From: an uncultured Actinomycetota bacterium | GTDB lineage: Bacteria > Actinomycetota > Thermoleophilia > RBG-16-64-13 | Length of the DNA stretch: 64,000 bases | Reading direction: 5' to 3' | NCBI GenBank assembly: GCA_963843455.1 | Contig: CAWJKE010000009.1 | Location: forward strand, 3,691 to 67,690 | Shown here: one piece after another, positions 1-18,598 of the stretch | How the letters are laid out: each line of letters opens with the position of its first letter | Numbering within the stretch: position 1 is the first letter of the stretch | The notes under the pieces: generated by a model | Database searches by the model: none | Told to the model about the DNA's origin: nothing | What the model saw: only the letters and a program-made list of their open reading frames with translations | Program-made: the position numbers and the translations under genes

Positions 1-1320
1 GGCGACCGCGGGCACGTGGCCGCCCACAACGGGGTGGGCGCGGTCATGGGCTCCAAGAAGACTCAAGTGCATCTCGGCCACCAAAGGCGACGTGAAACCG
101 CGGGTGGTCGACACGGAGCGTCTGCGTGCGCGAAGGCCAAGCAGCTGGCCGCGGTGTCCAAGGAAGTCGACCCGGGTTGGTCAAGCTGTCGGCACCAATG
201 CCGGCATCGCTCCGCTCAGCGCGATGGGAGCGGTCCCCATCAGGAACTACACCACCAACGTCTTCCCCGAGAACAACACGTTTGTCCCCGAGTACCTGCG
301 CAGCCATTTCAAGGCCAAACCCGTCGCCTGCTGGGCCTGCAGTCATCGCCCACTGCCGCATGATGGAAGTGACCGAGGGCCCGTACGCCGGCTTCTACGG
401 GGAGGAGCCCGAGTACGAGGGCAACGCGGAGATGGGTCCGCTGATCGGCATGAACGAACCGGGGTCCACCGTGATGCTCTGCAACCTGGTGGACCGGCTG
501 GGGTTCGACGTCAACGAATCGGGCTACATGATCTCCTGGCTCATGGAGTGCTACGAGAGGGGCCTGCTTCACGCAGCGCCGATCTCGATGGGGTGGAGAT
601 GCACTGGGGCGACGCCGAGGCGGTCGCCGCCATGCTCAAGAAGATCGCCCATCGCGAGGGCTGCGGCGACTTCTTCGCCGACGGGGTCAAGCGGTGCGCC
701 GAGAAGGTGGGCGGAGAGGCCCAGGACTGCGCCGTCTACACGCTCAAGGGCGCTACTCCTCGCGGCCACGACCACCGGGGCCACTGGCTGGAGTTCATCG
801 ACACCTGCCTGTCGAACACCGGCACGGTCGAGACGGCGCGGCCATCTCTTCACGCCCGCCCAATCTGGGGCTGGAGCGGGTGCAGGACCGCTTCGACCCC
901 ATTGCCATGTCGACCATGAACGCCAAACTCAACGGCGGCCGCAGTCTGGAGGACTCGCTCGGCATCTGCCGGCTTTGCACGCCGAATCTCGCCCTCACGC
1001 TCGAGTGCATGAACGCCGTGACCGGCTGGGATTGGGACGTCGAAGCCGCGCAGGAGTTCGGCGTCCGCATCGTCAACCTCATGAGGATGTTCAACTTCCG
1101 CCACGGTCTCACCAAAGAGGTCGAGGCCCCGTCGGTGCGCTACAGCTCCACGCCCGTCAACGGCCCGGCCGAGGGCAAGGGCATCCGCGAGCATTGGGAC
1201 GCCATCCGCGACAACTACTACGAGCAGATGGGCTGGGACGTGGCGACGGGCAGGCCCACCCCGGAGACTCTGCGACGCTATGGGCTGGACTACGTTCTCG
1301 AGGAATCGGCCGGCGAATGA
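1..1320 (+). CDS. aor: Aldehyde:ferredoxin oxidoreductase (W/Mo AOR family), 5'-truncated, broken by about 6 frameshifts
   Basis: AOR motifs spread over several frames: AAHNGVGAVMGSKK, NYTTNVF..C..C, GEEPEYE, CNLVDRLGFDVNE, WGDAEAV..IAHREGCGDFFADG, DSLGIC, YYEQMGWD..GRPT.ETL..YGL stop at 1320. Confidence 0.85.
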
Positions 1321-1368
1321 GGCCTGAGGCCGGGTGCACCCGTCGCGGCGCTCGGGTCGCGCCCGGCA

Positions 1369-1632
1369 TCAGCCCCCCGACATGAAGGGGATGATCTTCA
1401 CGTGGTCGCCGGGCTGCAGCCGGTAGTCCGGCCGCACGTACACGCCGTTCACTATCACCGCTTCGGTGTCGCCGGGTATCTGCAGGCTCTCGGTGAGGTC
1501 TCCGAGGGTCATGCCCTCGCTCAGGGGCACGTCCACCGGCGGAAGGCCGGGCCGCGCCGGGAAGGTCTCCACGGTCACGATGTTGTCGGCGGCGAACTTC
1601 TCAGTCGCGGTGTACTGTTCGTCGGCGCACAT
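1369..1632 (-). CDS. MoaD/ThiS-family sulfur carrier protein
   Basis: 87 aa ubiquitin-like fold, AVIVNG..L.PGD.V.IIPFMSGG with C-terminal GG; lies between two pterin enzymes. Confidence 0.85.
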   Translation of the reverse strand: MCADEQYTATEKFAADNIVTVETFPARPGLPPVDVPLSEGMTLGDLTESLQIPGDTEAVIVNGVYVRPDYRLQPGDHVKIIPFMSGG

Positions 1633-1704
1633 GGCTCAAGTGTAGCCGATGGTGCGACGCGGGCTCACCCGGCGAAGGAGAGCGATCCGGGTGCGCGCCC
1701 GACG

Positions 1705-3987
1705 GTGGCCGAAGTGATCCAAGAGAAGAAGATCGTCTGCTGGGCCTCGCCGGGCTGCGTCCACCAGTGCGGGCTGATCGCGACGGTGGAGGACGGCAAG
1801 CTGGTCGGGCTTAGAGGCAATCCCGACTATCCCACCCCCAACCGCGGCTGCAGCGACCGCATGCCCCACCACATCAAGTGGCTCTACAGCCCGGAGCAAC
1901 TCATGCATCCGCTCAAGCGGATCGGGGAGCGCGGCGAGGACCGGTGGGAGCAGATCCCCTGGGATCAGGCGCTCGACGAGATAGCGGAAAAGCTCGCCGG
2001 CCTGAAGGCAGAGTACGGGGCCGAGACCCTCGCCCTCCACGAGGGCACCTACCGCAGCGACATGTACCCCATGCGCACCCGGTTCCTCAACCTCTTCGGC
2101 AATCCCTCGAACATCGGCTGCGCCGGCACCATCTGCCGCTGCAACACCATCGCCATGAACTACGCGCTGCTGGGCTGCGCCAACTCGCGGGCCAAAGTCC
2201 ACCAAATGGACTGCGTGGTGCTTCACGGCAACAACGTCCGGCATACGTCGCCGCTCGACTGGCAGCGCCTGCGCAAGCGGATGGAGGCCAAAGAGGTCAA
2301 GGTCATCGTCATCGATCCGCGCAAGACCGAAGCCGGCGCACCACGCGGACATGTGGCTCCAGCTCCGTCCCGGCACCGACACCGCCCTTCTGATGGCGTG
2401 GATCAACGTCATCATCGAGGAGGGGCTGTACGACAAGGCCTTCGTCGAGGAGTGGACCGTCGGCTTCGACGAGCTGCGCGCCCGGGCGGCGGAGTACACG
2501 CCCGAGCGGGTGGCCGAGATCACCTGGGTCCCGGCGGGACTCATCCGCGAATCGGCCCGCATGTACGCCACCAGCAAGCCGGCGAGCTTCCATTGGGGGT
2601 CGGCGACCGACATGTTGGGACGCAACTCCATCCGGGTGGAACAGGCTCGGATCTGCCTGAGGGCCATCACCGGCAACCTTGCTGAGGGCGGCGGAGAGAT
2701 GATCGTCGGGCCCGGGCCCATCATCGGCGGCAAGATGGGCATCCGCGACTCCATGCTCGTGTTCCCCGAGATGATCAGTCCCGAGCAGCGGAAGAAGCAG
2801 ATCGGCGCCGACCGGTTCAAGCTCATGGGGTGGCCGGGCTACGAGGCCATGGCGCAAGTATCACGAAGACACCTACGGCGTCCCCTTCCCTACGGCCGCC
2901 CACAACTTCGTGGCGGTGCAGCCTCTCATCTGGAAGGCGATCGTCGATCAGGAGCCCTACCCCGTCACGGCGATGGTCACCTGGGGGAGCAACGTCCTTC
3001 TCAACGGCGGCGACGTCAAGACCATGTACAAGGCGCTCAAGAGCCCCAACCTCAAGCTCCACGTGGTGCTCGAGCATTTCATGACCCCCACCGCGCTTCT
3101 GGCCGACTACGTGCTCCCCATCGCCAGCAAGCTCGAGAAGCCCATGTGCGCCACTCACGAGGATTTCGCGCCCAACATCGCCTGCTCGGAGGCGGCAGTG
3201 GAGCCGCTGGGCGAGCGACACGGTGACTACTTCTTCTGGAAGGGGCTGGCCGAACGTCTGGGCTTCGGCGAGTACTTCCCCTGGGAGACCGAGGAGGAGC
3301 TGGCCGATGAGCGGTTGGCGCCTCTTGGCCTGACCTTCGAGGAGGTAGCCACCGAGAAGTACTTCGTCCGGAGCGATGAGCCCTGGACGTACAAGACGAT
3401 CAACCCGCGCACCGGCAGGCCCACCGGCTTCGCCACGCCCTCGGGCAAGGTCGAGCTCTACTCCGAGGTGCTCGAGCAGCTCGGATACGACCCGCTGCCC
3501 TTCTACGAGGAGCCCCCGGAGAGCCCGGTCAGCACGCCCGAGGTGGCGGTGGAGTACCCGCTACATCCTCATCACCGGCGCAAACTTCCGGCCCATGTTC
3601 CACTCCGAGAACCGGCACTTCGGCATGGGCACCCGCGAGCAGTATCCGGACCCCATCATGGAACTGCACCCCGACGTGGCCGGTCCGCTCGGCATCGAGG
3701 AAGGCGACTGGGTCTGGGTGGAGACCCGCCGGGGGGCGATCAAGCAACGGGCTCACGTTACCGACGAGATCCATCCCCAGGTGGTCAACGTCCAGCGCCA
3801 CTGGTGGTTCCCCGAGCAGCCGGCGGCCGAGCCCTCGCTTCACGGTCTCTGGCAGTCGAACTGCAACGTGCTGACCATGGGCGACGACCCCGACACGTAT
3901 GACCCGGTGACCGGCGGCTGGCCGCTGCGGGCGCTTCTGTGTAAAGTCTACAAGGCCAAAAAAGTACTCGAGGAGGAACAAGCATGA
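1705..3987 (+). CDS. Molybdopterin (bis-MGD) oxidoreductase, acetylene-hydratase-like clade; frameshifts near 2340, 2870-2900 and 3560
   Basis: CWASPGCVHQC..C Fe-S motif, WDQALDEIAEKL, GTICRCNT (Cys ligand), LRPGTD, TPTALLADYVLP, FATPSGKVELYS, molydop-binding C-terminus; reassembled from ORFs 1402, 2351, 2910 and 3376; start (GTG 1705) uncertain. Confidence 0.85.
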
Positions 3988-5339
3988 CCGCGCCGGCACC
4001 CGACCCGATGTTCGACGGCTGGGACAATCTCGACTGGCTGGAACGCCGCGAGCGGCGCTTTGAGCGCTGGCTGAGCGCACCCGGCGTGGACTTCCAGACC
4101 GAGGCGGCCCGGCAGGCATACCGGGAGCGGGTCCAACTGTTCGTCGACGTCATCGGTCTCAAGAAGCCGGCGCGGGTGCCCGTGAACACGCTTTGCGGCT
4201 ACTTCGTCGGCCAACACAGCGGCCTTTCGAAGAAAGAGTTCATGTACGACTACGACAAGGCGGCCGCAGCGGTCAAGAAGTTCCACGACGACTTCCAGCC
4301 CGACTTTCAGACCGGCGCGGTGGCTCCGGCACGGGTCTTCGAGTTGCTGGGACTCAACCTGGTGCAGTGGCCGGGGGGCACTCTTTCCGACGAGACCCCG
4401 TGGCAGTACGTGGAGTCCGAGTACATGGGGGAAGACGAGTACGACGCGCTGATCGCCGATCCCGAGGCGTTCTTCCGGCGCACGCTGCTGCCCCGCTTCG
4501 GGTCGGCGTTCGGGTCGCTGGGGGGCCTGTCGCCCTTCACCGACATGATGGAAGCCACCACCATGCTCTTCAGCATCCTGCCGTTCGCCGACCCGGCTGT
4601 GCTGGAGGGTGTCCAGAGGCTCACGCAGGCGGCTCAGGAGTGCCTCAACTGGCTCATGACCACCGGCGCCGCCGGCGCCGACGCGGCGGGACGGCTGGGC
4701 ATCCCTCGGGCGATGGGCGGCTTCGGCAAGGCGCCGTACGACATCCTGGCCGACACGCTGCGGGGCACCAAGGGCATCATGCTCGACCGCTTCCGCCGGC
4801 CCGAGAAGATCCTTGAGGCGTCGGAGCGCCTGGTGCCGATCCTCACCGAGTGGGGCGTCCGTCAGGCCTCGAGGTCCGACGCACCCCTCATCACCTTCGT
4901 GCTGCACAAGGGTGCGGACAGCTTCATGTCGGACGCGGACTTCAAGCACTTCTACTGGCCAACGCTCAAGGCCGTCATGAAGGGGCTCATCGCCGAGGGC
5001 ATCGTCCCCTTCATGTTCGCGGAGGGCGGGTACAACAAGCGGCTCGAGGTCATCGCCGACGACGACCTGCCCACGGGGAGTGTCGTCTGGCTCTTCGACC
5101 AGACGGACATGTTCGCGGCCAAGCGGGCCTTGGGCGGCCGGGCGGCCATCGCCGGCAACGTTCCCACGGCTCTCCTGGCGCTGGCCACTCCTGCCGAGGT
5201 CGAGAAGTACGTCACCGACGTGCTGGACGGATGCGCCAAGGACGGTGGAGTCCTCCTGCAGAACGGAGCGGTGCTCGACGACGCCAAAGCCGAGAACCTC
5301 AAGGCCATGATCGAGACCGCGCGCAACTGGAAGGGCTGA
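3984..5339 (+). CDS. Uroporphyrinogen decarboxylase/MtaA-CmuA (URO-D-like) family protein
   Basis: 451 aa; PYDILADTLRG..GIM.D.FRRPE, FYWPTLK, AIAGNVP..LL..TP.EV; ATGA overlap with upstream gene. Confidence 0.8.
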   Translation: MTAPAPDPMFDGWDNLDWLERRERRFERWLSAPGVDFQTEAARQAYRERVQLFVDVIGLKKPARVPVNTLCGYFVGQHSGLSKKEFMYDYDKAAAAVKKFHDDFQPDFQTGAVAPARVFELLGLNLVQWPGGTLSDETPWQYVESEYMGEDEYDALIADPEAFFRRTLLPRFGSAFGSLGGLSPFTDMMEATTMLFSILPFADPAVLEGVQRLTQAAQECLNWLMTTGAAGADAAGRLGIPRAMGGFGKAPYDILADTLRGTKGIMLDRFRRPEKILEASERLVPILTEWGVRQASRSDAPLITFVLHKGADSFMSDADFKHFYWPTLKAVMKGLIAEGIVPFMFAEGGYNKRLEVIADDDLPTGSVVWLFDQTDMFAAKRALGGRAAIAGNVPTALLALATPAEVEKYVTDVLDGCAKDGGVLLQNGAVLDDAKAENLKAMIETARNWKG

Positions 5340-5392
5340 GCGCCGGCCGGCGGCGCCCGCTGAGCCCGGCCCCGGCGGCTGGAGGAGTGACC

Positions 5393-7431
5393 ATGTACTC
5401 GTGCAGGTACCCCCATCTGTTCAGCCCCATCCGGCTGGGGGACACGGTCTTTCGTAACCGGTATTTCGCGGCGCCGGTGGGTTACGAATACCTGTCGTCC
5501 AAGAACTACCCCCTCGACGAGACCATCGCTTTCTTCGAGCGCAAGGCGATGGGCGGCGCGGCGACGGTGAACTACGGCTCGGGAGCCCCGGACAGCCGGC
5601 GGGGCGTCATCGGGCTGAGCAACCCCTACCTGGACGACCCCACCGCTCTGCCCGCTCTCTACCGGGTGGCGTCGGCCATCAACCGGCACGGGGCGGTCGC
5701 CGCCATGGAGTTGCTCCACACCGGCGCCAACTCCTACATCTGCGCGGCCCGCGGCAACCAGATCTACGGGGCGGTCGACGGGGTGAACCCCCTGGGCCAG
5801 TTCGTCCCCGCCATGCCGGAGGAGGTCATCGAGGAGACTATCGAGGCCTTCGGCAAGGCGGCCGCCTTCGCCAAGTTCTGCGGCTTCGGGATGGTCACCG
5901 TTCACGCCGGTCACGGCTGGCTGCTCAATCAGTTCCTCGACCCCAACGTGAACGACCGGAAGGACCAGTGGGGCGGGAGCCTGGAGAACCGCTGCCGGTT
6001 CCTCCTGGCCGTCGTCGAGCGCATCAAGCGGAAATGCGGCCGGGGGTTCCCGGTCGACATCCGCATGAGCGGTTCCACCTGCTACGAGGGCGGCTACGGT
6101 ATCGACGAGGGTGTAGCCATCGCCAAGCAACTCGACGGCAAGGTCGACCTCATCCACGTCTCGGTCGGCAGCCACGAAGTGGCGGAGGTCTTCACCGTCA
6201 CCCACCCCAGCATGTTCCTGCCCGACGGGGCCAACGTGCAGTTCGCCGCCGAGATCAAGAAGCACGTCCAAACGCCCGTCGGCACGGTGGGCGCCCTCGG
6301 GGATCCGGAACTTATGGAAGAGATCATCGCCTCCGGCAAGGCCGACGTCGTTCTGGCCGCCCGGGCCATGATGGCCGATCCCGACCTGCCCAAGAAGGCC
6401 CGGGCGGGAAGACGCGACGAGATCAGGCCGTGCATCCGCTGCTTCGAATGCTTCGCCGGCATCACCACCAAGCGCCAGTATCGGTGCGCCGTGAACCCGG
6501 AGATAGGCTTCGAACAGGACGTGCGGCACGCGCTGCCGGCGACCACTCCGAAGACCGTCCTTGTGGTCGGCGGCGGAGTCGCCGGGATGCAGGCGGCCCT
6601 GACCGCGACGGAGCGCGGGCACCACGTGATCCTCTGCGAAAAGACCGGGCGGTTGGGCGGGGCGCTCCGCTGTGAGGAGCGGGTGCCCTTCAAACGGCTC
6701 CTGCGCGAGTACCTGGACTATCAGGCCAGGATGGTGGGCCGGGCTCCCATCGACGTGCGGCTGAGCACTGAAGTGACCCCCGCGCTCGCCTCCGCGGCCG
6801 AAGCGGACGTGATCATCGCCGCCCTCGGCGCTCGTCCCACCGTACCGGATATTCCCGGCGTCGCCGGCCCAAACGTTCTTGGCGCGGAGGAAGCCTATAC
6901 CGATCCGGAAAGGGTCGGGGCCGCGGCGGCGGTTCTGGGCGGCGGACTCTTGGGCATTGAACTGGCCATCTTCCTTTCGGGGCTGGGCCGGACGGTCACC
7001 ATCCTGGAGATGATGGGGACTCTCAGCGACGGGGGGAATCCGGTCCACGGCCTTGCCCTGATCAACGAGATCCGGAGGCACGCGATACAGGTGTCCACCT
7101 CCACGCGGGCCGCTGAGATCACCACGGAAGGGGTCATCGGAGAATACGTGGGAGACGCCTACACCCTTCCCCCGTGCCGCGACGGTGCAGGCCGCGGTGC
7201 TCCACTCAAACAGCTTTGGCAGGGTGGTCAGGGCCGACGCCGAGGTAGGCAGCCGGCTGCTGTTCGAAGCCGGACACGGTGATCTACGCGACCGGCCGGC
7301 AGCCCCTGCAGGCTGAGGCGGACGCCCTCGGTCTCTGCGCGCCGGAGTTCTACCAGATCGGCGACTGCTTCTCCGCGCGAAACGTGCTCGAGGCGACGCG
7401 CATGGGGTTCGCGGTCGCCCGCGATCTGTAG
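5393..7431 (+). CDS. NADH:flavin oxidoreductase (OYE + 4Fe-4S + FAD domain; BaiCD/BaiH/DCR-like), frameshifted near 7180-7250
   Basis: RBS GGAGGAG then ATG 5393; HAGHGWLLNQFL, CIRCFEC..CAVNP, VVGGGVAG, GGGLLG.E; C-terminus IGDC...A..DL stop 7431 in a shifted frame. Confidence 0.85.
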
Positions 7432-7495
7432 CGGGCGCTTCCCGGCCGCCGCCATGACCCGCCCGGTCTTCCCGCCCCGGCCCCGGCGGGGAGTT

Positions 7496-9392: not shown

Positions 9393-9407
9393 CAGGCTTC
9401 AGGATAG

Positions 9408-11560: not shown

Positions 11561-11591
11561 TGCCCCCCAGGTCTTGCGTCAGTTACACGGA

Positions 11592-11623
11592 CGCCGCGGG
11601 GCGGCGAAAGCCGCCCCGCGGCG
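11592..11623 (-). terminator. 14-bp GC hairpin between the AthB-like and OYE genes
   Basis: CGCCGCGGGGCGGC-gaaa-GCCGCCCCGCGGCG; no U-tract, so it may be a stabiliser or processing hairpin. Confidence 0.5.
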
Positions 11624-11650
11624 CAAGGATCTGCCCCGCACATGGATATT

Positions 11651-12472
11651 CTACTTCAGCGGGATGTCTCCGAGGTTGATATCGAGCTCGGTGGTGTCCA
11701 GACCGGTGAATGACAGCACCTTGTCGCCGGACTTGAGCTCCAGGTCGTACACGCCGCCGTCGATCCCCTCGAACCAGAAATCGCCGTAGTTGTCGGTCTG
11801 GGTGCTGAGCAGTCTGCCGTCGGCGCTCTTGAGGGTGGCCGCCGCCCCGATGACGACCTCTTCTTCCACCGGCTCGTACAGCGTGCCGGCGATGAACTTC
11901 TTGGGCAGATTGAGGTAGTGCACCCGCGGCTTCACTTCGTCTTTCAACTCCGGCTTCCACACCTCGCTCTTGGCGATGAGTTCCTGGGCCTCGTCCTCAT
12001 CCAGGAACAGAATGGCATTGGTGGGGCAGGCGTCGGCGCAGCGAGGCTCGGCCCAACCATCGTCCAGGAGGTGGGCGCAACCTGTGCACTTCTGCGCCAG
12101 GTTGAGGTCCTCGTTGAAGAAGATCACGTCGTACGGGCAGGCGTCCACACAGAGGCGGCAACCGGTGCACTTCTGCGTGTCGATGATCACCATGCCGTCT
12201 TCACGTTTGTACAGAGCGCCTTCGACCGGGCACGCCTCGATGCAGGGGGCTTGGTCGCAGTGCATGCAGAGGTGAGGCCGGTAGGCGACTTTCACCTTGG
12301 GCACGGTACCGCGCACCCTCTCGGTGAGCTCCAGCCAGAACTGCCCGATGTCGGGCTGCGGCTTGGCGATGGGCGACCAGTCGTTGCCTACGTGCTCGTC
12401 CTTGCAGACGATCTGGCAGTTATGGCAACCGTTGCACCGGGCGATGTCGATGACGAAGACCTTCTTTGCCAT
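11651..12472 (-). CDS. Fe-S small subunit, pyrogallol hydroxytransferase beta (AthB)-like
   Basis: FVIDIARCNGCHNC..CKDEH, four 4-Cys blocks, CAHLLDDGW.EPRC, C-terminal beta domain TDNYGDFWF; similar to my recollection of Pelobacter AthB. Confidence 0.85.
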   Translation of the reverse strand: MAKKVFVIDIARCNGCHNCQIVCKDEHVGNDWSPIAKPQPDIGQFWLELTERVRGTVPKVKVAYRPHLCMHCDQAPCIEACPVEGALYKREDGMVIIDTQKCTGCRLCVDACPYDVIFFNEDLNLAQKCTGCAHLLDDGWAEPRCADACPTNAILFLDEDEAQELIAKSEVWKPELKDEVKPRVHYLNLPKKFIAGTLYEPVEEEVVIGAAATLKSADGRLLSTQTDNYGDFWFEGIDGGVYDLELKSGDKVLSFTGLDTTELDINLGDIPLK

Positions 12473-12474
12473 GA

Positions 12475-15129
12475 CTACCTCCCCTCCGTTATCCAGCTAC
12501 TGAACCGCAGTCCGGAGGCCGGGTCGTAGTCACGGGCGAAGGCTTCGGGATACTTGGCCATCCACTCTTCCATCTGCGCCATGCTGACCTTTTCCACATC
12601 GGCTAGATAGCCGCTCGTGGCCTGGCCACCGGCGTGCTTGGAGGTCAGTCCTTTGGGCGAGATCACGTTGATGGCGCCACCGCGCTCCAGAGTGAAGTTC
12701 TCGTCGATGAAGTCGGCCCGGGCTCCGTGGTCCACGGAGATGACGCCGGGCATGATGCGTTCCCACACAAGGGCGCCGCAGAGAACGCTACCGCGCTCGT
12801 TGAAGACCCGCACGATGTCGCCGTTCTTGATGCCCCGGGCCTCCGCATCGCCGGTGTGCATCCAGCAGGGCTCGTACCAGTAACCGTCCCAGCCTCTGAT
12901 CTTGCCGGTGACCGTCTCTTTGGTCCACGAGATGTCGTCGGCCTGGGCGTGGGTCCTCCAGCGGCCATGGTTCGACATGACCAGCAGCGGGTAGACCCGG
13001 GCGCGCACGCTCGAGATGCGCTCGTCGTGAGTGATGCCCTTCTCGATCCACTTCGGGATCCCCGCCCGTTCTTCGTCGTTGGGGAAGGCTTTCTCCAGGC
13101 TCTCCGACCAGAACTCCAGCTTGCCGGTGGGTGTGGGGATCGGGTTGGCCACCGGGTCTTTCCAGAAGTCATAGAGACCGGCCGGCCATTTCTCCCAGTC
13201 GGGAGCTACGGGGAGGACCGTGTACTGCTTCTCTACGAACTCCTCCCACGGTGTGACCGTGTCGAACTTCATGCCCACATAGGTGCCCTTGACGAGATCC
13301 TCGTCGGAGAAGCCCTCGGTGACCAGCTCCTTCACACCCATCTTCTCGGCCACGGCGACGACCACGTGGTAGTCGGTCCGCGCCTCACCGACCGGATCGA
13401 TGGCCCGGTTCATGAGGATGACGCTCTGGAAGCTGTCGCCCTCGCGGATGCAGGGGGAGATGTCGTCGCACTCGAGCGTCGTGGTCACGGGGAAGATGAT
13501 GTCTGCGGCCAGGACATCGTTCTCGAGCCAGGGATGCTGGGCGACCACGCACTCGATCTTCGGGTTGCGGAAGCCCTCCATGACCTCTCCGCCGCCGCCC
13601 CAGCAGGTGCACCGGCAGGGGGTGTCGGTCCACATCATGTGGATCTCCGTGCCGCCCTTTTCCTTCTCGATGGGGTACTCATAGCGCCGGTACTGGTCGG
13701 AAGTCGGTTCCTCGTGGCCGCCGGTACCCCAGAACTCCACTTTTCCGTCGCGGATGGCCTCCTCGATGAGGACCTTGGGGATCATCTGTTTGCCCCAAGC
13801 GGTCGGAGTGCCGCGGTGGGGTTTGAGCAAGCGCTCGCCGTAGGGCTGGTTGTTCAGGTTGGCGAACGGGCCCATGTGATCCGCGCCGCCGGTGATGACG
13901 TTCTTCGGCATGCCCGTGTAGGCGATCTGCGCCTGATGAACGCCCGGTTTGCCGAGGCCCTGCATGCCGAGCAGGACACACTCGAGGCGGGCGGGCTCGG
14001 TGGAGTACGGGCCGCGGGCCATGCCCCCGCCGAAGTAATGCCCGATGGTGACGATCTGCTTGGCCCAGTCGCGGGCCAGAGCCTTGATGGTCCATACCGG
14101 CACGCCGCACTTGGGCGACGCCCACTGCGGGGTCTTGGCAACGCCGTCTTCTTCACCCAGGACGTAGGCCTTCATCTTGTCGAAGCCCACCGTGTGGGTG
14201 GCGACGTATTCCTTGTCGTACGTGCCCTCGGTGATCCACTGGTACATGATGGCCAACTGGAGGGCGGCGTCGGTGTTGGGGAGGATCGGAATCCACTTGT
14301 CGGCATGGATGGCTGCGGCGTAGTTGAGGTCGGGGTTGATGTAGACCTGCTTGATGCCGATCTCGCTCCAGAAGTAGAGGAGCCGGCTGGCGAACTGTCC
14401 GCGGAAGCCCCAGGTGGTGGTCTCCGGGTCGCCGCCCCAGACCACGACCATGTCGCTGTTCTCGCAGATGTCTTTCACGATGTTGTCGTTGGGGGCCATC
14501 ATCCCGATGAAGCCCTTGCCCCACACGTGCTTGGAGCCCCAGTACCAGCCTTCCCAGCTGTCGGGGTTGCGGATCTGCTGGGTGAAGCCACCCAATTTGT
14601 CGAGGAGGAGGGTGGAGCAGCCGTGGGGCGCGTGCACCATCTTGCACTCGCCGTGTCCGTCGCCCTGCACCAGGATGGCCAGGGGTCCATAGGTGTCGCA
14701 GATGCGCTTGACCTCGTCGGCGACGTACTGCGCCGCCTCATCCCAGGAGATGCGGACGTACTTGCTCGTGCCCCGGTTCTGCGGGTTCCTGTCGCCCTTC
14801 GGGTCCCAGTCCACTCGCTTGAGAGGGTAATTGACCCGGTTAGGCGAGTAGGCCCGCTTCTTGTAGGCGAGGCTCCAGGGGGCCGGCACCGACTTGAAAT
14901 ACGGCTCCAGGGTCTTGCCGTTCTTCTCGATCTTCCAGGAGTTGAACGTCTCCGGATCGTAGGCCGAATCCCAGTGGAGCGGCCGGATGCGGATGATCTT
15001 GCCGTCCTTGACGTCCACGGCACACGGGCTGGCGCCGAAGATGCCACCGCTCAGCCCGAGCGCCTTATGGACCGTCTTGTCGGCCCCGGTCGCCTTAGCT
15101 GTGGGCGGCTTGTATTTCTCTAATGCCAT
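12475..15129 (-). CDS. Molybdopterin enzyme large subunit, pyrogallol hydroxytransferase alpha (AthL)-like
   Basis: VKDGKIIRIRP, NPDSWEGWYWG (Ser Mo ligand), TPTGKLEF, NHGRWRTHAQ; no N-terminal Fe-S motif, no Tat signal. Confidence 0.88.
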   Translation of the reverse strand: MALEKYKPPTAKATGADKTVHKALGLSGGIFGASPCAVDVKDGKIIRIRPLHWDSAYDPETFNSWKIEKNGKTLEPYFKSVPAPWSLAYKKRAYSPNRVNYPLKRVDWDPKGDRNPQNRGTSKYVRISWDEAAQYVADEVKRICDTYGPLAILVQGDGHGECKMVHAPHGCSTLLLDKLGGFTQQIRNPDSWEGWYWGSKHVWGKGFIGMMAPNDNIVKDICENSDMVVVWGGDPETTTWGFRGQFASRLLYFWSEIGIKQVYINPDLNYAAAIHADKWIPILPNTDAALQLAIMYQWITEGTYDKEYVATHTVGFDKMKAYVLGEEDGVAKTPQWASPKCGVPVWTIKALARDWAKQIVTIGHYFGGGMARGPYSTEPARLECVLLGMQGLGKPGVHQAQIAYTGMPKNVITGGADHMGPFANLNNQPYGERLLKPHRGTPTAWGKQMIPKVLIEEAIRDGKVEFWGTGGHEEPTSDQYRRYEYPIEKEKGGTEIHMMWTDTPCRCTCWGGGGEVMEGFRNPKIECVVAQHPWLENDVLAADIIFPVTTTLECDDISPCIREGDSFQSVILMNRAIDPVGEARTDYHVVVAVAEKMGVKELVTEGFSDEDLVKGTYVGMKFDTVTPWEEFVEKQYTVLPVAPDWEKWPAGLYDFWKDPVANPIPTPTGKLEFWSESLEKAFPNDEERAGIPKWIEKGITHDERISSVRARVYPLLVMSNHGRWRTHAQADDISWTKETVTGKIRGWDGYWYEPCWMHTGDAEARGIKNGDIVRVFNERGSVLCGALVWERIMPGVISVDHGARADFIDENFTLERGGAINVISPKGLTSKHAGGQATSGYLADVEKVSMAQMEEWMAKYPEAFARDYDPASGLRFSSWITEGR

Positions 15130-15259
15130 TCGGTTCGCCTCCTCATTCTCATGGACAAGTTCTTACTATACGCCAAGCAGTCTGGCGGCGAGATGCCTTC
15201 CCTCCGTGACTAGCATGTTAATGCAGGCAAAAGCTGCGGGAGCTATTCGGCCCAACATT

Positions 15260-16495
15260 TCATGGTTGGCTTGAAGTATGACCGGACCGCATGGCAGCCG
15301 GACCGCGTTCCCGGAGGAAGAGAGAAGCTACGGCGCCGGCGCCGAAAACAGCCGCGGACAGCGCATAGGACGGTGCCAAAGACGAGAAGATGTCTTCGAG
15401 GGCGCCGCCGACGTACGGCCCCAGCATCTGTCCCATGCCGACAAAGACGGTGACAAACCCGAGGGAGGCCGCGGCTAAACGGGCGCCGAAGTGGTCGCCG
15501 CACGCGGCTCCGAAGAGGGCCGGGACGCTCAGGGCGCAGATGCCGAACACAGCGGATGCAATCGCCAGCGCCGCGAGGTTGTGCCAGAGTGCAAAGACCA
15601 GAGCAACGGCCGCCTGAACGGCGAAGACGGCGGCGAGCGCCCGGCCTCTCCCTACGCTGTCCGAGAGCCGCCCCCACAAGACTCCGGAGACGCACCCTGT
15701 CACGCCGACCACCAGGAAGAGGTTCCCGGCAGTCTCGCTGCTGTACCCCAAGTCGACGGTCAGTCGCTTCTGGAAGAACGTGAAGAAGAGGAGGAAGGCG
15801 AAGCCGTAGAGGAAGTACAGGAGCCCCAGGAGCCAGGCGCGGCGCGAGCGGACGATGCTGCGCATGTCCGACCATTTCAGCTTCGCGATGACCGTGGCCC
15901 GGTCGGCGTAGGGCCGGTCGCGCTGGACGATGAAGGCGACCGCGGCGATCACCAAAGTGACGGCGGCGAAGAAGTACCAGGCGGCCCGCCACCCGTCGTC
16001 GCCCCCCGCTTCGATGATCCTCGGGACTATCGGTCCCACGACGAGAAGGGCGAACGAGGAACCGGCGGGGACTATGCCGGAGGCCGTCCCCAATCTCCTG
16101 GACTCGAACCAGGCGGCCATCAGCGCCAGAGAGGGGGCCAGGACCATCGCGTTCCCCATGCCGGTGACGAAACGCCCGGCCGAAGCCACGGCCAGACCGT
16201 CGGCAACCCCGGTGAGCAACATCCCCGCGGCGGTGATGATCAGCCCCAGGCCGGCGATGAGCCGAGGACCGAACCGGGAGGCCAGGATTCCTCCGATCAG
16301 GGCCATTATCGTGTAGCCGGCCTGGTTCCAGGAGGCCAGCGAACCGGCTTCGGCGCTCGTCAGCCCGAGGGCCTCCTGCATCGACGGCAGCACCGCGCTG
16401 TATCCAAAGCGTCCGAAGCCGATGGCCGCGAAGACCGAGACAAAGGCCATGCCCGCGACCACCCACCGATAACGGGAATCACGGGTCAGCCGCAT
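15260..16495 (-). CDS. MFS transporter (YbfB/YjiJ-like)
   Basis: 12 TM pattern, GFGRFGYSAVLPSM, GRLSDSVGR loop motif. Confidence 0.85.
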   Translation of the reverse strand: MRLTRDSRYRWVVAGMAFVSVFAAIGFGRFGYSAVLPSMQEALGLTSAEAGSLASWNQAGYTIMALIGGILASRFGPRLIAGLGLIITAAGMLLTGVADGLAVASAGRFVTGMGNAMVLAPSLALMAAWFESRRLGTASGIVPAGSSFALLVVGPIVPRIIEAGGDDGWRAAWYFFAAVTLVIAAVAFIVQRDRPYADRATVIAKLKWSDMRSIVRSRRAWLLGLLYFLYGFAFLLFFTFFQKRLTVDLGYSSETAGNLFLVVGVTGCVSGVLWGRLSDSVGRGRALAAVFAVQAAVALVFALWHNLAALAIASAVFGICALSVPALFGAACGDHFGARLAAASLGFVTVFVGMGQMLGPYVGGALEDIFSSLAPSYALSAAVFGAGAVASLFLRERGPAAMRSGHTSSQP

Positions 16496-16511
16496 GGGGT
16501 CGCCCAGGTGG

Positions 16512-17783
16512 TCAGCGCACGCCTCGCCGCTTGGGAAGTTCGGGGAGCGCGACTTCCGAATCTCCGTCGGACTCCGCCGAGCCTCGAGGGAGGAGCAGCG
16601 CGGCGCCGGCGGCTGCCACGAAGACTGCGCCAGAGAAGAAGTACGAGGGCGCCAGCGATGAGAAGGCGTCGTTCATCGCTCCGCCGATCAGCGGGCCGAT
16701 GGCTTGTCCGGCACCCACAAGGATAGTGATGAGCCCCAAAGAGGCGGAAGCGCGCTTGGGCCCGAACCGTTCGGCGCAGGCGACGCCCATGAGGCCTGGG
16801 AACGCAAGCCCCGTCGAACCGAAAAGGACTGCCGAGAGCGCCAGCACGGGTAGGCGGATTCCGGTCCCGAACAGGAAGCCGCCGATACCGGCGAGGAACA
16901 GGGTGAGGGCGAGAGTGCGCTCCCGGCCAAAACGGTCCGATGCCGATCCCCAGATCATCCCGCCGGCCAGGCCGGCGATCCCTACGAGCATGAAGAGGTA
17001 GCCGGCGGTCTGGGTGCTGTATCCCAGGTCTGTCGTAAGGCGCTTCTGGAAGAAGGTGAAGTAGAGCAGGAACGCGACGCCGTAGAGCAGGTAGACGGCG
17101 CCCAAGTGCCAGGCGTATCCGGAACGGATGACGCCTCCCAGGTGAAAGGAGGGTGGGCTGAGCTGGGCCCGGATGGCCGGAGGTGCCCACTTGTCGATGA
17201 CTATCTCGTCGCTCTCGACGATGGGCTTTGCCGGCCGGTCGCGTTGGATGATCGCGCTGAACGCGGCGAGCAAGATCGTGACTCCGGCGAAGAAGAACCA
17301 GGCGAGCCGCCATCCCTCGGCTCCGCCCGCGTGCAGGATGGGCGGCACCGCCAGGCCGACAACGACCAGAGCGAGCGACGAACCGGTCGGTACGACGGCC
17401 GAAGCAAGGCCCAGGCGATGGGTCTTGAACCACGCGGCCATGAGGCTGATGGACGGGACCAGTACCAGCCCGTTCCCCATCCCTGTCAGCAGCCGCGCGG
17501 CGGACGCTCCCGCGAGTGTGTTCGACAGGCCCGTGATGAGCATCCCCGCCGCGGTGACCACTACGCCCAGCGTGATCACTCTACGTGGTCCCCACCGGGA
17601 AGCAAGCACTCCGCCCACGGCCGACATGACGGTGTAGCCGACCAGGTTCCAGGATGCCAACGATCCTGCCGCCGCACTGCTGATGTTCAGGCCTTTCTGC
17701 ATGGAGGGCAGCACGGCGCTATAGCCGAAGCGGCCGAATCCCAGGGCTCCGAAAACACCCATGAACGCCATGCCGAGGACCAC
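16512..17783 (-). CDS. MFS transporter (YbfB/YjiJ-like), paralog of the adjacent gene
   Basis: GFGRFGYSAVLPSMQ, GSASDRFGR; start codon uncertain. Confidence 0.85.
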   Translation of the reverse strand: MVLGMAFMGVFGALGFGRFGYSAVLPSMQKGLNISSAAAGSLASWNLVGYTVMSAVGGVLASRWGPRRVITLGVVVTAAGMLITGLSNTLAGASAARLLTGMGNGLVLVPSISLMAAWFKTHRLGLASAVVPTGSSLALVVVGLAVPPILHAGGAEGWRLAWFFFAGVTILLAAFSAIIQRDRPAKPIVESDEIVIDKWAPPAIRAQLSPPSFHLGGVIRSGYAWHLGAVYLLYGVAFLLYFTFFQKRLTTDLGYSTQTAGYLFMLVGIAGLAGGMIWGSASDRFGRERTLALTLFLAGIGGFLFGTGIRLPVLALSAVLFGSTGLAFPGLMGVACAERFGPKRASASLGLITILVGAGQAIGPLIGGAMNDAFSSLAPSYFFSGAVFVAAAGAALLLPRGSAESDGDSEVALPELPKRRGVR

Positions 17784-17833
17784 CCACCGATAAGCGGGAC
17801 GCTGTGAGCGAGACGGCTGTACCGCGCGGCCTC

Positions 17834-18598
17834 TCAGATGTTCATGCCGCCGTCCGCCATGAAGACGCTCCCGGTAGAGAAACTGCTCGCGTCGGAGGCC
17901 AGGAACAGCACCATCCGGGCCACCTCCGACGCTCGGCCGTGCCTGCCGAGAGGGATGATTCCGTTGAGGAATTCCGTCCCATTCTGGCCGACGATCTCGG
18001 TGAGCCGCTCCTCTATCTGAGTCTGGAACTCGTTCTCAATGGGGCCGGGAGCAAAGACGTTCACCCGTATATTCCGCGGCGCCGCTTCTTTTGCGACTAC
18101 CCGCGCCAGCCCGATGAGCGCGTGCTTCGACGTCGCGTAGGCGCAGACGCCCGGGTCGGCCCTGGTGCCCATGATGCTCGAGGTGATGATGATGCTGCCG
18201 CCGTCGTTCATGAGCGGCAGTCCATACTTGCATGCGAGGAAAGAGCCCCTGATATTCGTCGCGATGACAGCGTCGAACACGTCCTCCGGGTACTCGGTGA
18301 CCGGCTTGATGACGCCGGAGATGCCGGCATGGCTGAAGATGACGTCGATGTTGCCCCAGTTCGCGACCGCCCGGTCGAGATACTTGCGGGTTTCCGCTGC
18401 GTCGGCGACGTCGGCCGAGATGCTATCGAGCACATCTGCCCCGGCGTTCAGTGACGCGGCCGCCCAGGCCAACTTCTCCGAGCTCCGACCAACAAGCAGC
18501 ACCCGCGCCCCCTCTTCCAGGAGCGCCTGCGCGGCCGCCAGGCCGATGCTGCCTCCGCCGCCGGTGACGACACAGACCTTTCCCTTCATGATGCCCAT
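17834..18598 (-). CDS. Short-chain dehydrogenase/reductase
   Basis: TGGGGSIG, YATSK, RVNVFAPG, FLASD; RBS GAAGGAGG before ATG 18598. Confidence 0.9.
   Translation of the reverse strand: MGIMKGKVCVVTGGGGSIGLAAAQALLEEGARVLLVGRSSEKLAWAAASLNAGADVLDSISADVADAAETRKYLDRAVANWGNIDVIFSHAGISGVIKPVTEYPEDVFDAVIATNIRGSFLACKYGLPLMNDGGSIIITSSIMGTRADPGVCAYATSKHALIGLARVVAKEAAPRNIRVNVFAPGPIENEFQTQIEERLTEIVGQNGTEFLNGIIPLGRHGRASEVARMVLFLASDASSFSTGSVFMADGGMNI

What the first reader, a model, noticed from the sequence alone, without database searches (positions are those of the whole stretch)
1..18598. Three Mo/W-pterin enzyme families plus flavin reductases and importers within 18 kb
AOR, an acetylene-hydratase-like enzyme and an AthL/AthB-like pair sit with a MoaD carrier, a UroD-like protein, two OYE-FAD enzymes, an SDR and two MFS importers. 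None of the fully visible enzymes has a Tat signal or membrane anchor (the AOR N-terminus is off-window), so they are probably cytoplasmic. Inference: an undescribed anaerobic pathway for (poly)phenolic or heterocyclic substrates using dehydroxylation, C=C reduction and aldehyde oxidation.
Basis: inference. Interest (0 to 1): 0.62.

Follow-up and report, generated by a model that had tools for sequence, protein, structure and literature searches.

The report
Modular molybdenum/tungsten aromatic-breakdown gene island
An uncultured soil actinobacterium (Gaiellales-like) carries two neighbouring but separable sets of cytoplasmic molybdenum/tungsten and flavin enzyme genes that probably reshape plant-derived phenolic compounds without oxygen; the enzyme families are known, the sub-branches are uncharacterised, and the set is not shown to be one pathway.

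Summary
The description still needs three corrections.

1. **Broken frames.** In this assembly the AOR gene has about 11 frameshifts and the acetylene-hydratase-like gene has 3. Corrected reading gives 87-88% identity to intact orthologues, no stop codons, and dN/dS of 0.11-0.12, like the intact neighbours. I read the breaks as consensus errors near a contig junction.
2. **Missed gene and extent.** A VanW cell-wall gene sits in the middle, and the cluster continues upstream of the window.
3. **Two modules, not one unit.**
   - Module A is [OYE/FAD-AOR'-SDR-SDR-]AOR-MoaD-AH-like-UroD-fold-OYE/FAD.
   - Module B, convergent, is SDR-MFS-MFS-AthL-AthB-OYE/FAD.
   - They are adjacent in three genomes of two genera and apart in a fourth.
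   - Three near-complete genomes of the same genus keep module B but have no AH-like orthologue.

Beyond this family, only the AthL-AthB pair travels together.

Membership tests:
- **AthL/AthB** is not a Pelobacter-type transhydroxylase: Arg153 is Pro, Tyr404 is Met, and the β subunit has four clusters.
- **The AH-like enzyme** lacks Asp13.
- **The UroD-fold protein** resembles corrinoid methyltransferase MTI.

Anaerobic phenolic metabolism is plausible. A single undescribed pathway is not shown.

The parts
1..1320 (+). Aldehyde:ferredoxin oxidoreductase (AOR, W-pterin family), C-terminal ~440 codons. The gene starts ~520 bases upstream of the window. It is broken by ~11 indels in this assembly, 7 of them in the window.
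   Evidence: AFOR_C matches are split over three frames. The frameshift-aware alignment gives 83-88% identity to the G006 orthologue and no stop inside the gene. dN/dS is 0.108. The orthologue's best PDB match is P. furiosus AOR 1aor, E 2.8e-73.
1369..1632 (-). ThiS/MoaD-type small sulfur-carrier protein (87 aa, C-terminal Gly-Gly), on the opposite strand between AOR and the AH-like gene.
   Evidence: PF02597 ThiS, E 1.9e-12. The sequence ends ...FMSGG. It holds the same position in G006, G009, G017 and L103-L106. MoaD-like genes sit in the AOR operon of A. aromaticum (PMC6365974).
1705..3987 (+). Acetylene-hydratase-like cytoplasmic Mo/W bis-PGD enzyme with an N-terminal [4Fe-4S] motif. Three single-base insertions (2338, 2855, 3561) break the frame in this assembly.
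   Evidence: Pfam domains are split over frames. The indels are mapped, with 85% identity to G006 and no stops. dN/dS is 0.118. The intact orthologue matches acetylene hydratase 2e7z at E 1.4e-135; the Cys141 ligand is kept and Asp13 is replaced by Ile (Val here).
3984..5339 (+). UroD-fold protein (451 aa) of the corrinoid-methyltransferase MTI-like branch. Its start overlaps the AH-like stop (ATGA).
   Evidence: PF01208 matches the C-terminal half only. The best PDB match is CdmB 9rui, E 1.8e-22 (PMC13222342). Paralogues at 30-41% identity lie directly downstream of corrinoid proteins. Orthologues are found in G006, G009, G003 and G004.
5393..7282 (+). OYE1: FadH/BaiCD/NCR-type Fe-S flavoenzyme (OYE/FMN domain, Cys cluster motif, FAD/NAD(P) domain), 629 aa.
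   Evidence: Pfam hits; NCBIfam hits are below every curated cut-off. Cys347/350/353/365 form the motif.
7496..9392 (-). VanW/PG_binding_4/G5 cell-wall-associated protein. Its N-terminal basic stretch and membrane helix lie in another frame (one more indel near 9256). Probably not part of the catabolic function.
   Evidence: Pfam hits; the three translated frames are. It is present between the two halves in G006, G003 and G004 but not in G009.
9482..11560 (-). OYE2: FadH/NCR-type Fe-S flavoenzyme, 692 aa, last enzyme gene of the right-hand module.
   Evidence: Pfam hits. The best PDB match is 2-naphthoyl-CoA reductase 6qkg, E 1.9e-64, over the full length. The motif uses Cys375/378/381/391. 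Orthologues follow AthB in G003, G004, G006, G009 and L010.
11651..12472 (-). AthB-like β subunit with four complete [4Fe-4S] Cys motifs plus a C-terminal β-barrel-like domain.
   Evidence: The best PDB match is the pyrogallol hydroxytransferase small subunit 4v4c_B, E 6e-56. That chain lacks the Cys of motif 3, which are present here. All 16 Cys are found in 64 of 89 homologues.
12475..15129 (-). AthL-like large subunit (RhL/PgtL family of Ser-ligated MopB enzymes), 884 aa, no Tat signal.
   Evidence: PF21423, PF00384 and PF01568. PDB 4v4c_A matches at E 2.5e-123. His144, Asp174 and Ser175 are kept; Arg153 is Pro, Tyr404 is Met, and Trp354 and Tyr560 fall in deletions. The pocket signature covaries with the four-cluster β subunit.
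15260..16495 (-). MFS transporter 1 (MFS_1/MFS_4; weak likeness to oxalate/formate, lactate and aromatic-acid carriers).
   Evidence: Pfam hits; NCBIfam hits are all below cut-off; at least 10 hydrophobic segments.
16512..17783 (-). MFS transporter 2, a paralogue of MFS1.
   Evidence: Pfam hits; both copies are kept in G003, G004, G006 and G009.
17834..18598 (-). Classical SDR (254 aa from the ATG at 18598), first gene of the right-hand module.
   Evidence: Pfam hits. PDB and NCBIfam give generic SDR hits only, with no specific match. Orthologues at 84-94% in G003, G004, G006, G007 and L009.

Best explanation
The stretch is most of a chromosomal catabolic island, over 20 kb long, in an uncultured Thermoleophilia (Gaiellales-like) bacterium. 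It is built from two convergent gene modules that can occur apart.

**Module A (+ strand, starting upstream of the window)**
- Order: OYE/FAD, AOR', SDR, SDR, AOR, MoaD-like (opposite strand), AH-like Mo/W enzyme, MTI-like UroD-fold protein, OYE/FAD.
- My inference for its function:
  - AOR (with the MoaD-like protein serving W-cofactor maturation) interconverts aromatic aldehydes and acids.
  - The UroD-fold protein acts as a methyl-ether methyltransferase (O-demethylase MTI), or as a substrate-binding partner.
  - The AH-like enzyme has the Cys ligand but no Asp13, so it does redox chemistry on the ring, such as catechol dehydroxylation.
  - The flavoenzymes reduce activated C=C bonds.

**Module B (- strand)**
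- Order: SDR, two MFS carriers, AthL/AthB, OYE/FAD.
- My inference for its function:
  - The carriers take up an aromatic acid.
  - The AthL/AthB enzyme has a full four-cluster wire and an altered pocket. It hydroxylates or dehydroxylates a phenolic ring with real electron transfer, rather than doing redox-neutral transhydroxylation.
  - The FadH/NCR-like flavoenzyme and the SDR act as ring or enone reductase, or as the NAD(P)H link.

**What is shown**: gene content, cytoplasmic location, subfamily signatures, synteny and separability.

**What is inferred**: all substrates and reactions.

The frameshifts in AOR, the AH-like gene and VanW are most likely assembly errors, not gene decay.
For: - **Family assignments**.
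- **Cytoplasmic**.
- **Frameshifts as artefact**:
  - The breaks are indels only, with no stops.
  - Corrected identity is 87-88%.
  - dN/dS is 0.108 (AOR) and 0.118 (AH-like), against 0.056-0.224 for the intact neighbours.
  - The indels thin out with distance from a 2.2-kb stretch that duplicates contig C1 at 98.6%.
  - Relative G006 has its own scattered frameshifts.
- **Modules conserved**:
  - Module A is in G006, G009, G017 and L103-L107.
  - Module B is complete in G003, G004, G006 and G009 and partly visible in G007, L009, L010 and L012, where contig ends or gene swaps leave it incomplete.
- **Modules separable**.
- **AthL subfamily**: the pocket signature H-P-DSW-M/L always pairs with a 16-Cys β subunit. 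The TH-like signature H-R-DSW-Y pairs with the three-cluster β subunit.
- **MTI likeness of the UroD-fold protein**: best PDB match is CdmB. Paralogues lie next to corrinoid proteins and DUF1638.
- **Recurring links between UroD-like and Mo enzyme genes**: G003 and G004, own contig C6 at about 152-163 kb, and L103.
- **Literature**:
  - Catechol dehydroxylases are the closest relatives of acetylene hydratase, and soluble forms without a Tat signal lie beside MFS genes (PMC7028382).
  - AthLS, AH-like and AOR genes have already been read as plant-phenolic metabolism in Chloroflexi MAGs (PMC3971608).
Against: - No substrate, expression or activity data exist for any gene here.
- None of the proteins reaches an NCBIfam equivalog cut-off.
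- The SDR is generic.
- No corrinoid protein, MTII or activator is adjacent to the UroD-fold gene. The nearest corrinoid protein is about 43 kb away.
- No small ferredoxin-type partner is adjacent to the AH-like gene.
- The artefact reading of the frameshifts could not be checked against reads.
- Synteny among members of one family may be inherited rather than selected.
Confidence: 0.55

Rival explanations
1. One integrated, undescribed pathway. All the genes from AOR to the SDR act on one substrate family, and the two convergent operons form a single regulon.
For: - The two halves are adjacent in G000, G006 and G009, which span two genera.
- In relatives an AthL paralogue sits inside module A: AH-like-UroD-AthL'-OYE1 in G006, and similar orders in L103, L104, L106 and L107.
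- All five families falling in one window is rare by chance, 12 of 5000 trials.
Against: - G017 carries module A far from any close AthL.
- G003, G004 and G007 keep AthL orthologues at 90-92% identity, and G003 and G004 the whole of module B, yet none has an AH-like orthologue.
- In G003 and G004 the Mo enzyme upstream of the UroD-like gene is a different AthL/AthB pair.
- Across phyla, AthL orthologues share only AthB as a neighbour.
- An unrelated VanW gene separates the halves.
Confidence: 0.2
2. Module A is decaying. AOR and the AH-like gene are true pseudogenes in this strain, and only module B plus UroD and OYE1 still function.
For: - There are 11 and 3 frame-breaking indels.
- Close relatives G003 and G004 have lost AOR and the AH-like gene altogether, and G003 keeps only a fragment of OYE1, so loss of these genes does happen in this genus.
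Against: - There are no in-frame stops, and dN/dS is as low as in intact neighbours. Eleven independent indels without a matching load of substitutions is not what neutral decay gives.
- The indels form a gradient next to an assembly junction.
- A housekeeping-type VanW gene is also hit.
- G006 shows scattered indels in other genes.
Confidence: 0.1
3. The island acts on non-aromatic substrates. Candidates are alicyclic or terpenoid/steroid-like enones, or aliphatic aldehydes and acids. BaiCD/FadH-like ene-reductases, SDRs, MFS carriers and AORs would do the work, with the Mo enzymes hydroxylating or hydrating aliphatic carbon.
For: - The best NCBIfam likeness of OYE1 is BaiCD, and of OYE2 the mycofactocin-type FadH/OYE and bilirubin reductase.
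- The AOR orthologue is closest to the broad-specificity P. furiosus AOR.
- The nearest solved relative of the AH-like enzyme acts on acetylene, not on an aromatic.
- The 70% paralogue of the UroD-fold gene lies among thiolase, DUF35 and enoyl-CoA hydratase genes.
Against: - Both characterised members of the AthL family (PgtL, RhL) act on phenols (PMC10100899).
- The characterised relatives of acetylene hydratase other than AH itself are catechol dehydroxylases (PMC7028382).
- The closest solved relative of OYE2 is an aryl-CoA reductase.
- The characterised relatives of the MTI family that CdmB's describers name (MtvB, OdmB, VdmB) are O-demethylases of methoxylated aromatics, beside CdmB's own chloromethane.
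Confidence: 0.15

Closest known systems
RhL/PgtL family: pyrogallol-phloroglucinol transhydroxylase AthL/BthL (PgtL) of Pelobacter acidigallici (PDB 4v4c) and resorcinol hydroxylase RhLS
   Same: - Two-subunit cytoplasmic Ser-ligated MopB enzyme without a Tat signal.
- Full-length match at E 2.5e-123 (α) and 6e-56 (β).
- His144, Asp174 and Ser175 are kept.
- The β subunit has the C-terminal barrel-like domain.
   Different: - Arg153 is Pro and Tyr404 is Met; Trp354 and Tyr560 lie in deletions.
- The β subunit keeps all four Fe-S motifs, where the Pelobacter enzyme has three.
- The signature defines a separate, widespread subfamily.
- TH-like paralogues (H-R-DSW-Y with a three-cluster β subunit) exist elsewhere in the same genome.
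- RhL could not be compared because no sequence or structure was on hand.
Acetylene hydratase (PDB 2e7z) and the catechol dehydroxylases of Eggerthella/Gordonibacter (Dadh, Cldh, Dodh)
   Same: - Full-length similarity to acetylene hydratase (E 1.4e-135).
- The Cys141 metal ligand and an N-terminal [4Fe-4S] site are present.
- No Tat signal, like acetylene hydratase and the soluble Gordonibacter-type dehydroxylases.
   Different: - The catalytic Asp13 is Val or Ile here, and His in more distant clade members.
- The first Cys spacing is widened (C-W-A-S-P-G-C).
- No adjacent small 4Fe-4S protein.
- The gene is translationally coupled to a UroD-fold gene.
- No direct comparison with dehydroxylase sequences was possible.
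Tungsten aldehyde:ferredoxin oxidoreductases (P. furiosus AOR 1aor; A. aromaticum AorABC with MoaD-like AorD/E)
   Same: - AFOR_N and AFOR_C domains; the best PDB match is 1aor.
- A MoaD-like gene lies beside it, as in the A. aromaticum operon.
   Different: - No AorA- or AorC-type subunit genes are adjacent.
- A second AOR paralogue and two SDRs lie upstream.
- The frame is broken in this assembly.
Corrinoid-dependent methyltransferase I of the UroD superfamily (CdmB, OdmB, MtvB, VdmB)
   Same: - The best solved relative is CdmB, of similar length (451 vs 429 aa).
- Genome paralogues at 30-41% identity follow corrinoid proteins and share the PLHKGADxFM motif.
   Different: - No corrinoid protein, MTII or activator is adjacent.
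- This sub-branch (with its 70% paralogue) is linked to Mo enzyme genes instead.
- Methyl transfer is not shown.
FadH / 2-naphthoyl-CoA reductase / BaiCD / enoate-reductase Fe-S flavoenzymes
   Same: OYE (FMN) domain, four-Cys cluster motif and FAD/NAD(P) domain. OYE2 matches NCR 6qkg over its full length.
   Different: Both proteins fall below every NCBIfam equivalog cut-off, and their substrates are unknown.

Membership tests
Pyrogallol-phloroglucinol transhydroxylase (AthL/BthL, P. acidigallici type) | MopB fold with AthL-type first domain, Ser175 Mo ligand, His144 and Asp174 | tested here: met
   PF21423, PF00384 and PF01568. The alignment to 4v4c_A shows H, D and S conserved in ...GHG... 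and NPDSWEGW.
Pyrogallol-phloroglucinol transhydroxylase (AthL/BthL, P. acidigallici type) | Substrate and co-substrate pocket residues Arg153, Tyr404, Trp354, Tyr560. Their roles are recalled from Messerschmidt et al. 2004, which was not held in the library. | tested here: not met
   Arg153 is Pro and Tyr404 is Met; Trp354 and Tyr560 fall in gaps of the query. The signature H-P-DSW-M is shared by the whole subfamily.
Pyrogallol-phloroglucinol transhydroxylase (AthL/BthL, P. acidigallici type) | β subunit with three [4Fe-4S] clusters (motif 3 lost) and a C-terminal β-barrel domain | tested here: not met
   All 16 Cys of four motifs are present, whereas 4v4c_B lacks those of motif 3. The C-terminal domain is aligned. 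Four clusters covary with the altered pocket.
Pyrogallol-phloroglucinol transhydroxylase (AthL/BthL, P. acidigallici type) | Redox-neutral hydroxyl transfer between pyrogallol and tetrahydroxybenzene | not testable with these tools
   This needs an enzyme assay.
Acetylene hydratase | Full-length fold similarity, Cys141 W ligand, N-terminal [4Fe-4S] | tested here: met
   2e7z matches at E 1.4e-135 over residues 26-764. Cys is aligned in ...TICRCNT. Four N-terminal Cys are present, with wider spacing.
Acetylene hydratase | Catalytic Asp13 next to the second cluster Cys | tested here: not met
   Ile in the G017 orthologue and Val in the window. The position is V, I or H, never D, in 41 clade members.
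Catechol dehydroxylase (soluble Gordonibacter type) | AH-related MopB enzyme without a Tat signal | tested here: met
   the features are as described in PMC7028382.
Catechol dehydroxylase (soluble Gordonibacter type) | Adjacent small 4Fe-4S partner and MFS gene; clade membership by phylogeny with Cldh, Dodh and Dadh | tested here: inconclusive
   No Fe-S partner or MFS gene lies in module A; the MFS genes are in module B. More distant clade members (37-43% identity) do have an AthB-like neighbour. No dehydroxylase sequences were available for a tree.
Aldehyde:ferredoxin oxidoreductase (AOR sensu stricto) | AFOR_N and AFOR_C domains, closest to characterised AORs rather than BamB | tested here: met
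   1aor at 2.8e-73, against BamB 4z3w at 3e-43 over the N-terminal part only.
Aldehyde:ferredoxin oxidoreductase (AOR sensu stricto) | Intact reading frame | tested here: not met
   About 11 indels in this assembly. These are judged to be artefacts from dN/dS of 0.108 and the absence of stops. Reads could not be consulted.
Corrinoid-dependent methyltransferase I (UroD superfamily, CdmB/OdmB clade) | UroD-type TIM barrel with best similarity to a characterised MTI | tested here: met
   PF01208 matches the C-terminal half. CdmB 9rui matches at E 1.8e-22, against true UroD 3cyv at 5e-4.
Corrinoid-dependent methyltransferase I (UroD superfamily, CdmB/OdmB clade) | Encoded with a corrinoid protein, MTII and activator | tested here: not met
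   None is adjacent. The lone corrinoid protein is at window 47913-48671. Paralogues elsewhere are adjacent to corrinoid proteins.
FadH/NCR/BaiCD Fe-S flavoenzymes | OYE domain, four-Cys [4Fe-4S] motif and FAD/NAD(P)-binding domain | tested here: met

The most novel reading that the evidence does not exclude
Two unstudied enzyme systems may be hiding in this island.

1. **A soluble, electron-coupled ring hydroxylase or dehydroxylase.** It would consist of the H-P-DSW-M subfamily of AthL, its four-cluster AthB, and a FadH/NCR-like flavoenzyme as the NAD(P)H link. This is distinct from the redox-neutral Pelobacter transhydroxylase and is widespread in Thermoleophilia, Dehalococcoidia and Desulfobacterota.

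2. **A two-component unit for ether and catechol processing.** It would consist of an MTI-like UroD-fold protein translationally coupled to an Asp13-less acetylene-hydratase-like Mo/W enzyme. It would O-demethylate and then dehydroxylate methoxyphenols, or cleave the ether with no dedicated corrinoid protein.

Together they would let soil actinobacteria funnel lignin-derived methoxy- and hydroxy-aromatics in anoxic soil.
Probability: 0.15. Interest if true: 0.75.

Novelty: new variant of a known kind. Interest (0 to 1): 0.4.

Why it matters
How polyphenols and lignin fragments are turned over in anoxic soils and peat (the 'enzyme latch' question) depends on enzymes that are still mostly unknown. 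AthL-like genes are routinely annotated as 'pyrogallol transhydroxylase' in MAG studies.

This analysis shows that the copy here belongs to a large subfamily whose pocket and Fe-S wiring differ from the one characterised transhydroxylase, so that annotation is probably wrong for most environmental homologues.

It also gives concrete, testable enzyme sets:
- AthL/AthB with the FadH-like flavoenzyme
- the AH-like enzyme with the MTI-like protein

As a cluster-level claim, the finding itself is moderate. The families and the general idea are already in the literature, and the 18-kb set is a plastic mosaic rather than a fixed pathway.

Tried and rejected
- **Real pseudogenes for AOR and the AH-like gene.** Rejected as the main reading because of low dN/dS, no stops, and the indel gradient beside an assembly junction.
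- **SDR as phloroglucinol reductase.** PDB and NCBIfam give only generic SDR matches, so there is no support.
- **AOR as a BamB-type benzoyl-CoA reductase.** Rejected, since the closest match is P. furiosus AOR.
- **AthL/AthB as a true transhydroxylase.** Pocket residues and β-subunit clusters fail the test.
- **AH-like as a true acetylene hydratase.** Asp13 is absent.
- **The 'LHKGAD' motif as a sign that the UroD-fold protein lost methyltransferase function.** Rejected, because corrinoid-linked paralogues share the motif.
- **A conserved third partner of AthL-AthB across phyla.** None was found.
- **UroD-like orthologues at 64-68% identity.** They sit in unrelated contexts.
- **Promoter and terminator scan.** Uninformative in this high-GC DNA.
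- **Primary papers.** Messerschmidt 2004 (PMC511022) and Darley 2007 (PMC1913315) were not held.
- **A query error of my own.** An early synteny run used a wrong frame for OYE1. It was corrected.

Full report
**Gene map**

The window is contig C9:3691-67690 of a 3.08-Mb, 16-contig, about 65% G+C genome. Pfam, NCBIfam and PDB searches give the following order.

| Gene | Window coordinates | Strand |
|---|---|---|
| AOR | 1-1320 | + |
| ThiS/MoaD-type protein ending in Gly-Gly | 1369-1632 | - |
| Acetylene-hydratase-like (AH-like) MopB enzyme | 1705-3987 | + |
| UroD-fold protein (start overlaps the AH-like stop, ATGA) | 3984-5339 | + |
| OYE+FAD flavoenzyme OYE1 | 5393-7282 | + |
| VanW/PG_binding_4/G5 protein | 7496-9256 | - |
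| OYE2 | 9482-11560 | - |
| AthB-like | 11651-12472 | - |
| AthL-like | 12475-15129 | - |
| MFS transporter 1 | 15260-16495 | - |
| MFS transporter 2 | 16512-17783 | - |
| SDR | 17834-18598 | - |

Beyond the SDR lie a methyladenine glycosylase, phosphoketolase, TauE, complex I, topoisomerase I and other housekeeping genes. The cluster is therefore chromosomal.

**Broken frames**

The AFOR_C and molybdopterin domains are spread over different frames. Relatives G006, G009 and G017 carry intact orthologues. Aligning these to the DNA with a frameshift-aware dynamic programme gave:
- about 11 one- or two-base indels in AOR, seven of them in the window;
- exactly three single-base insertions in the AH-like gene, at 2338, 2855 and 3561.

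The membrane anchor of VanW is also in another frame. After correction there are no in-frame stops and identity to G006 is 88% and 87%. dN/dS is 0.108 for AOR and 0.118 for the AH-like gene. The ten intact neighbours range from 0.056 to 0.224.

The indels thin out with distance from C9:1-2189, which duplicates C1:52847-55034 at 98.6%. G006 has its own scattered frameshifts in other genes. I read the breaks as consensus errors of a long-read-type assembly near a junction, not as decay.

**True extent**

In G009, G017 and G006 the AOR gene is preceded on the same strand by OYE/FAD, a second AOR paralogue and two SDRs. In the window's own genome these lie on C9:1-3100 and the end of C1. Module A is thus a nine-gene array, of which the window shows the last five.

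**What the proteins are**

*AthL and AthB*
- AthL matches the Pelobacter acidigallici transhydroxylase large subunit over its whole length (E 2.5e-123). It keeps His144, Asp174 and the Ser175 Mo ligand.
- Arg153 is Pro and Tyr404 is Met, and Trp354 and Tyr560 fall in deletions. The roles of these residues are recalled from Messerschmidt et al. 2004.
- AthB matches the small subunit (E 6e-56) but keeps all four Cys motifs, whereas the Pelobacter protein lacks motif 3.
- I compared 114 AthL homologues from 78 related loci and the window's own genome.
  - The pocket signature H-P-DSW-M/L pairs only with 16-Cys (or near-complete) β subunits, never with the three-cluster form.
  - The Pelobacter-like H-R-DSW-Y signature is present in five other loci of this same genome. 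It pairs with the three-cluster β subunit.
- The window's enzyme therefore belongs to a distinct, widespread, uncharacterised subfamily of the RhL/PgtL family (family defined in PMC10100899). Its full electron wire argues for redox chemistry.

*AH-like enzyme*
- The intact orthologue matches acetylene hydratase at E 1.4e-135, with the Cys141 ligand kept. Asp13 is Ile (Val in the window) and the first cluster motif is widened.
- Across 41 clade members this position is V, I or H, never D.
- According to PMC7028382, catechol dehydroxylases are the closest relatives of acetylene hydratase. That paper also reports soluble forms without a Tat signal that lie beside MFS genes.

*AOR and the MoaD-like gene*
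- The AOR orthologue is closest to P. furiosus AOR, not to BamB.
- A MoaD-like neighbour is normal for AOR operons (PMC6365974).

*UroD-fold protein*
- Its best solved relative is CdmB, a corrinoid-dependent methyltransferase I in the clade of aromatic O-demethylases (PMC13222342).
- The genome has 17 URO-D loci and about eight small corrinoid proteins.
- Paralogues at 30-41% identity lie immediately downstream of corrinoid proteins and upstream of DUF1638. They share the PLHKGADxFM motif.
- The window's copy and its 70% paralogue form their own branch. They are linked to Mo enzyme genes rather than to a corrinoid protein.

*Flavoenzymes, SDR and transporters*
- OYE1 and OYE2 are FadH/NCR/BaiCD-type Fe-S flavoenzymes with the four-Cys motif.
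- The SDR is generic.
- The MFS proteins weakly resemble carboxylate carriers.
- No enzyme has a Tat motif or a hydrophobic anchor.

**Chance and paralogy**

The genome holds about 11-12 AOR loci, about 28 MopB loci (about 16 AthL-AthB pairs), 17 URO-D loci and 12 OYE loci. Three or four of these families in one 18.6-kb window would be common by chance. All five occurred in only 12 of 5000 random placements. Smaller mixed groups recur elsewhere in the genome:
- C5: AthL-AthB-OYE
- C6: AthL-AthL-AthB...UroD-like
- C8: AOR-AOR-UroD-like-AthL-AthB
- C16: AOR-AthB-AH-like

- The closest AthL relatives are Gaiellales and 'uncultured Actinomycetes' MAGs.
- G006 (same genus) and G009 (another genus) carry both modules side by side in the same convergent layout, with extra AthL copies.
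- Metagenome contigs L103-L107 and L129 keep AOR-MoaD-AH-like-UroD, with or without a following AthL'.
- The halves separate, however.
  - G017 has module A without the UroD-fold gene, and its closest AthL (63%) is about 300 kb away.
  - AthL orthologues at 90-92% occur in six same-genus genomes. AH-like orthologues at 80% or more occur only in G006, G009 and G017.
  - G003 is the nearest relative overall (UroD 95%, SDR 94%). There module B and VanW are followed by the UroD-like orthologue and a fragment of OYE1. Upstream of these lies a different AthL/AthB pair in place of AOR and the AH-like gene. G004 is similar.
- Across phyla, AthL orthologues at 69-78% identity share only AthB as a neighbour.
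- UroD-like proteins at 64-68% identity sit in unrelated contexts.

The island is therefore a mosaic of exchangeable modules. The stable units are:
- AthL-AthB;
- the right-hand operon, within the genus;
- AOR-MoaD-AH-like, within the family;
- a recurrent 'Mo enzyme followed by UroD-like' link.

**Most likely working**

All of this paragraph is inference from family chemistry.
- Module B imports an aromatic acid through the MFS pair. AthL/AthB edits a ring hydroxyl with electron transfer through the four clusters. The FadH/NCR-like flavoenzyme and the SDR then reduce the product, or supply or remove electrons through NAD(P)H.
- Module A interconverts aldehydes and acids (the AORs and SDRs). 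It removes methyl ethers or prepares catechols (MTI-like protein, with a corrinoid protein supplied in trans). It dehydroxylates or otherwise transforms the ring (AH-like enzyme) and reduces C=C bonds (the OYE/FAD enzymes).
- This is the same repertoire of reaction types that gut Eggerthellaceae use on lignans and catechols (PMC7028382). Chloroflexi MAG studies inferred the same from AthLS, AH-like and AOR genes (PMC3971608; PMC4959651).

**Verdict**

- The most useful new points are:
  - the covarying pocket and Fe-S signature, which separates this AthL subfamily from the characterised transhydroxylase;
  - the MTI-like identity of the UroD-fold protein and its recurring link to Mo enzymes;
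  - the demonstration that the apparent pseudogenes are probably assembly artefacts.

Noticed in passing
upstream of window: contig C9:1-2189 and C1:52847-55034: A 2.2-kb stretch (the 3' part of a second AOR paralogue plus an SDR) is present on both contigs at 98.6% identity. After it the two contigs diverge. It is probably an unresolved assembly join or a strain bubble. The frameshift-rich zone begins right after it.
   Followed up: partly
window 9238-9392 (-): The basic stretch and membrane helix of the VanW-like protein (…KKRRRRRRRTTIFAAVGTVVFLLLMALL…) are read in a different frame from the rest of the gene. This is one more isolated indel.
   Followed up: partly
window 47913-48671 (-): A lone corrinoid protein (B12-binding plus B12-binding_2, 252 aa) sits next to ABC/FtsX transporter genes, with no methyltransferase beside it. 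It is a possible in-trans partner for orphan MTI-like proteins.
   Followed up: no
own genome: C16:362775, C16:365488, C7:265852, C6:72419, C5:1570: Five AthL paralogues carry the Pelobacter-like pocket signature (Arg153, Tyr404). Where a β gene is adjacent, it has the three-cluster form. These are better candidates for true transhydroxylases than the copy in the window.
   Followed up: partly
G003:C16 and G004:C79 (loci L161-L165): In the closest same-genus genomes, the orthologue of the UroD-fold gene (95% and 86%) follows a distant AthL/AthB pair instead of the AH-like gene. G003 keeps only a C-terminal fragment of OYE1. The Mo enzyme has been swapped while the UroD-like gene stayed.
   Followed up: partly
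own genome C7:24325-25593, C8:264594-265760, C6:280973-281236: A formate-dehydrogenase-like MopB gene and two AOR loci each carry one in-frame TGA. These could be selenocysteine codons or further assembly errors.
   Followed up: no
window 26765-37134 (+): A complex I (nuo) operon has NuoB- and NuoC-type domains in one open frame, followed by the D, H, I, J, L, M and N types. No NuoE, F or G types were seen in this stretch.
   Followed up: no
own genome C6:159200-163535: The 70% paralogue of the UroD-fold gene lies between a DUF35/thiolase pair and an enoyl-CoA-hydratase-like gene, downstream of AthL-AthL-AthB. This is another mixed Mo-enzyme and UroD-like module.
   Followed up: partly
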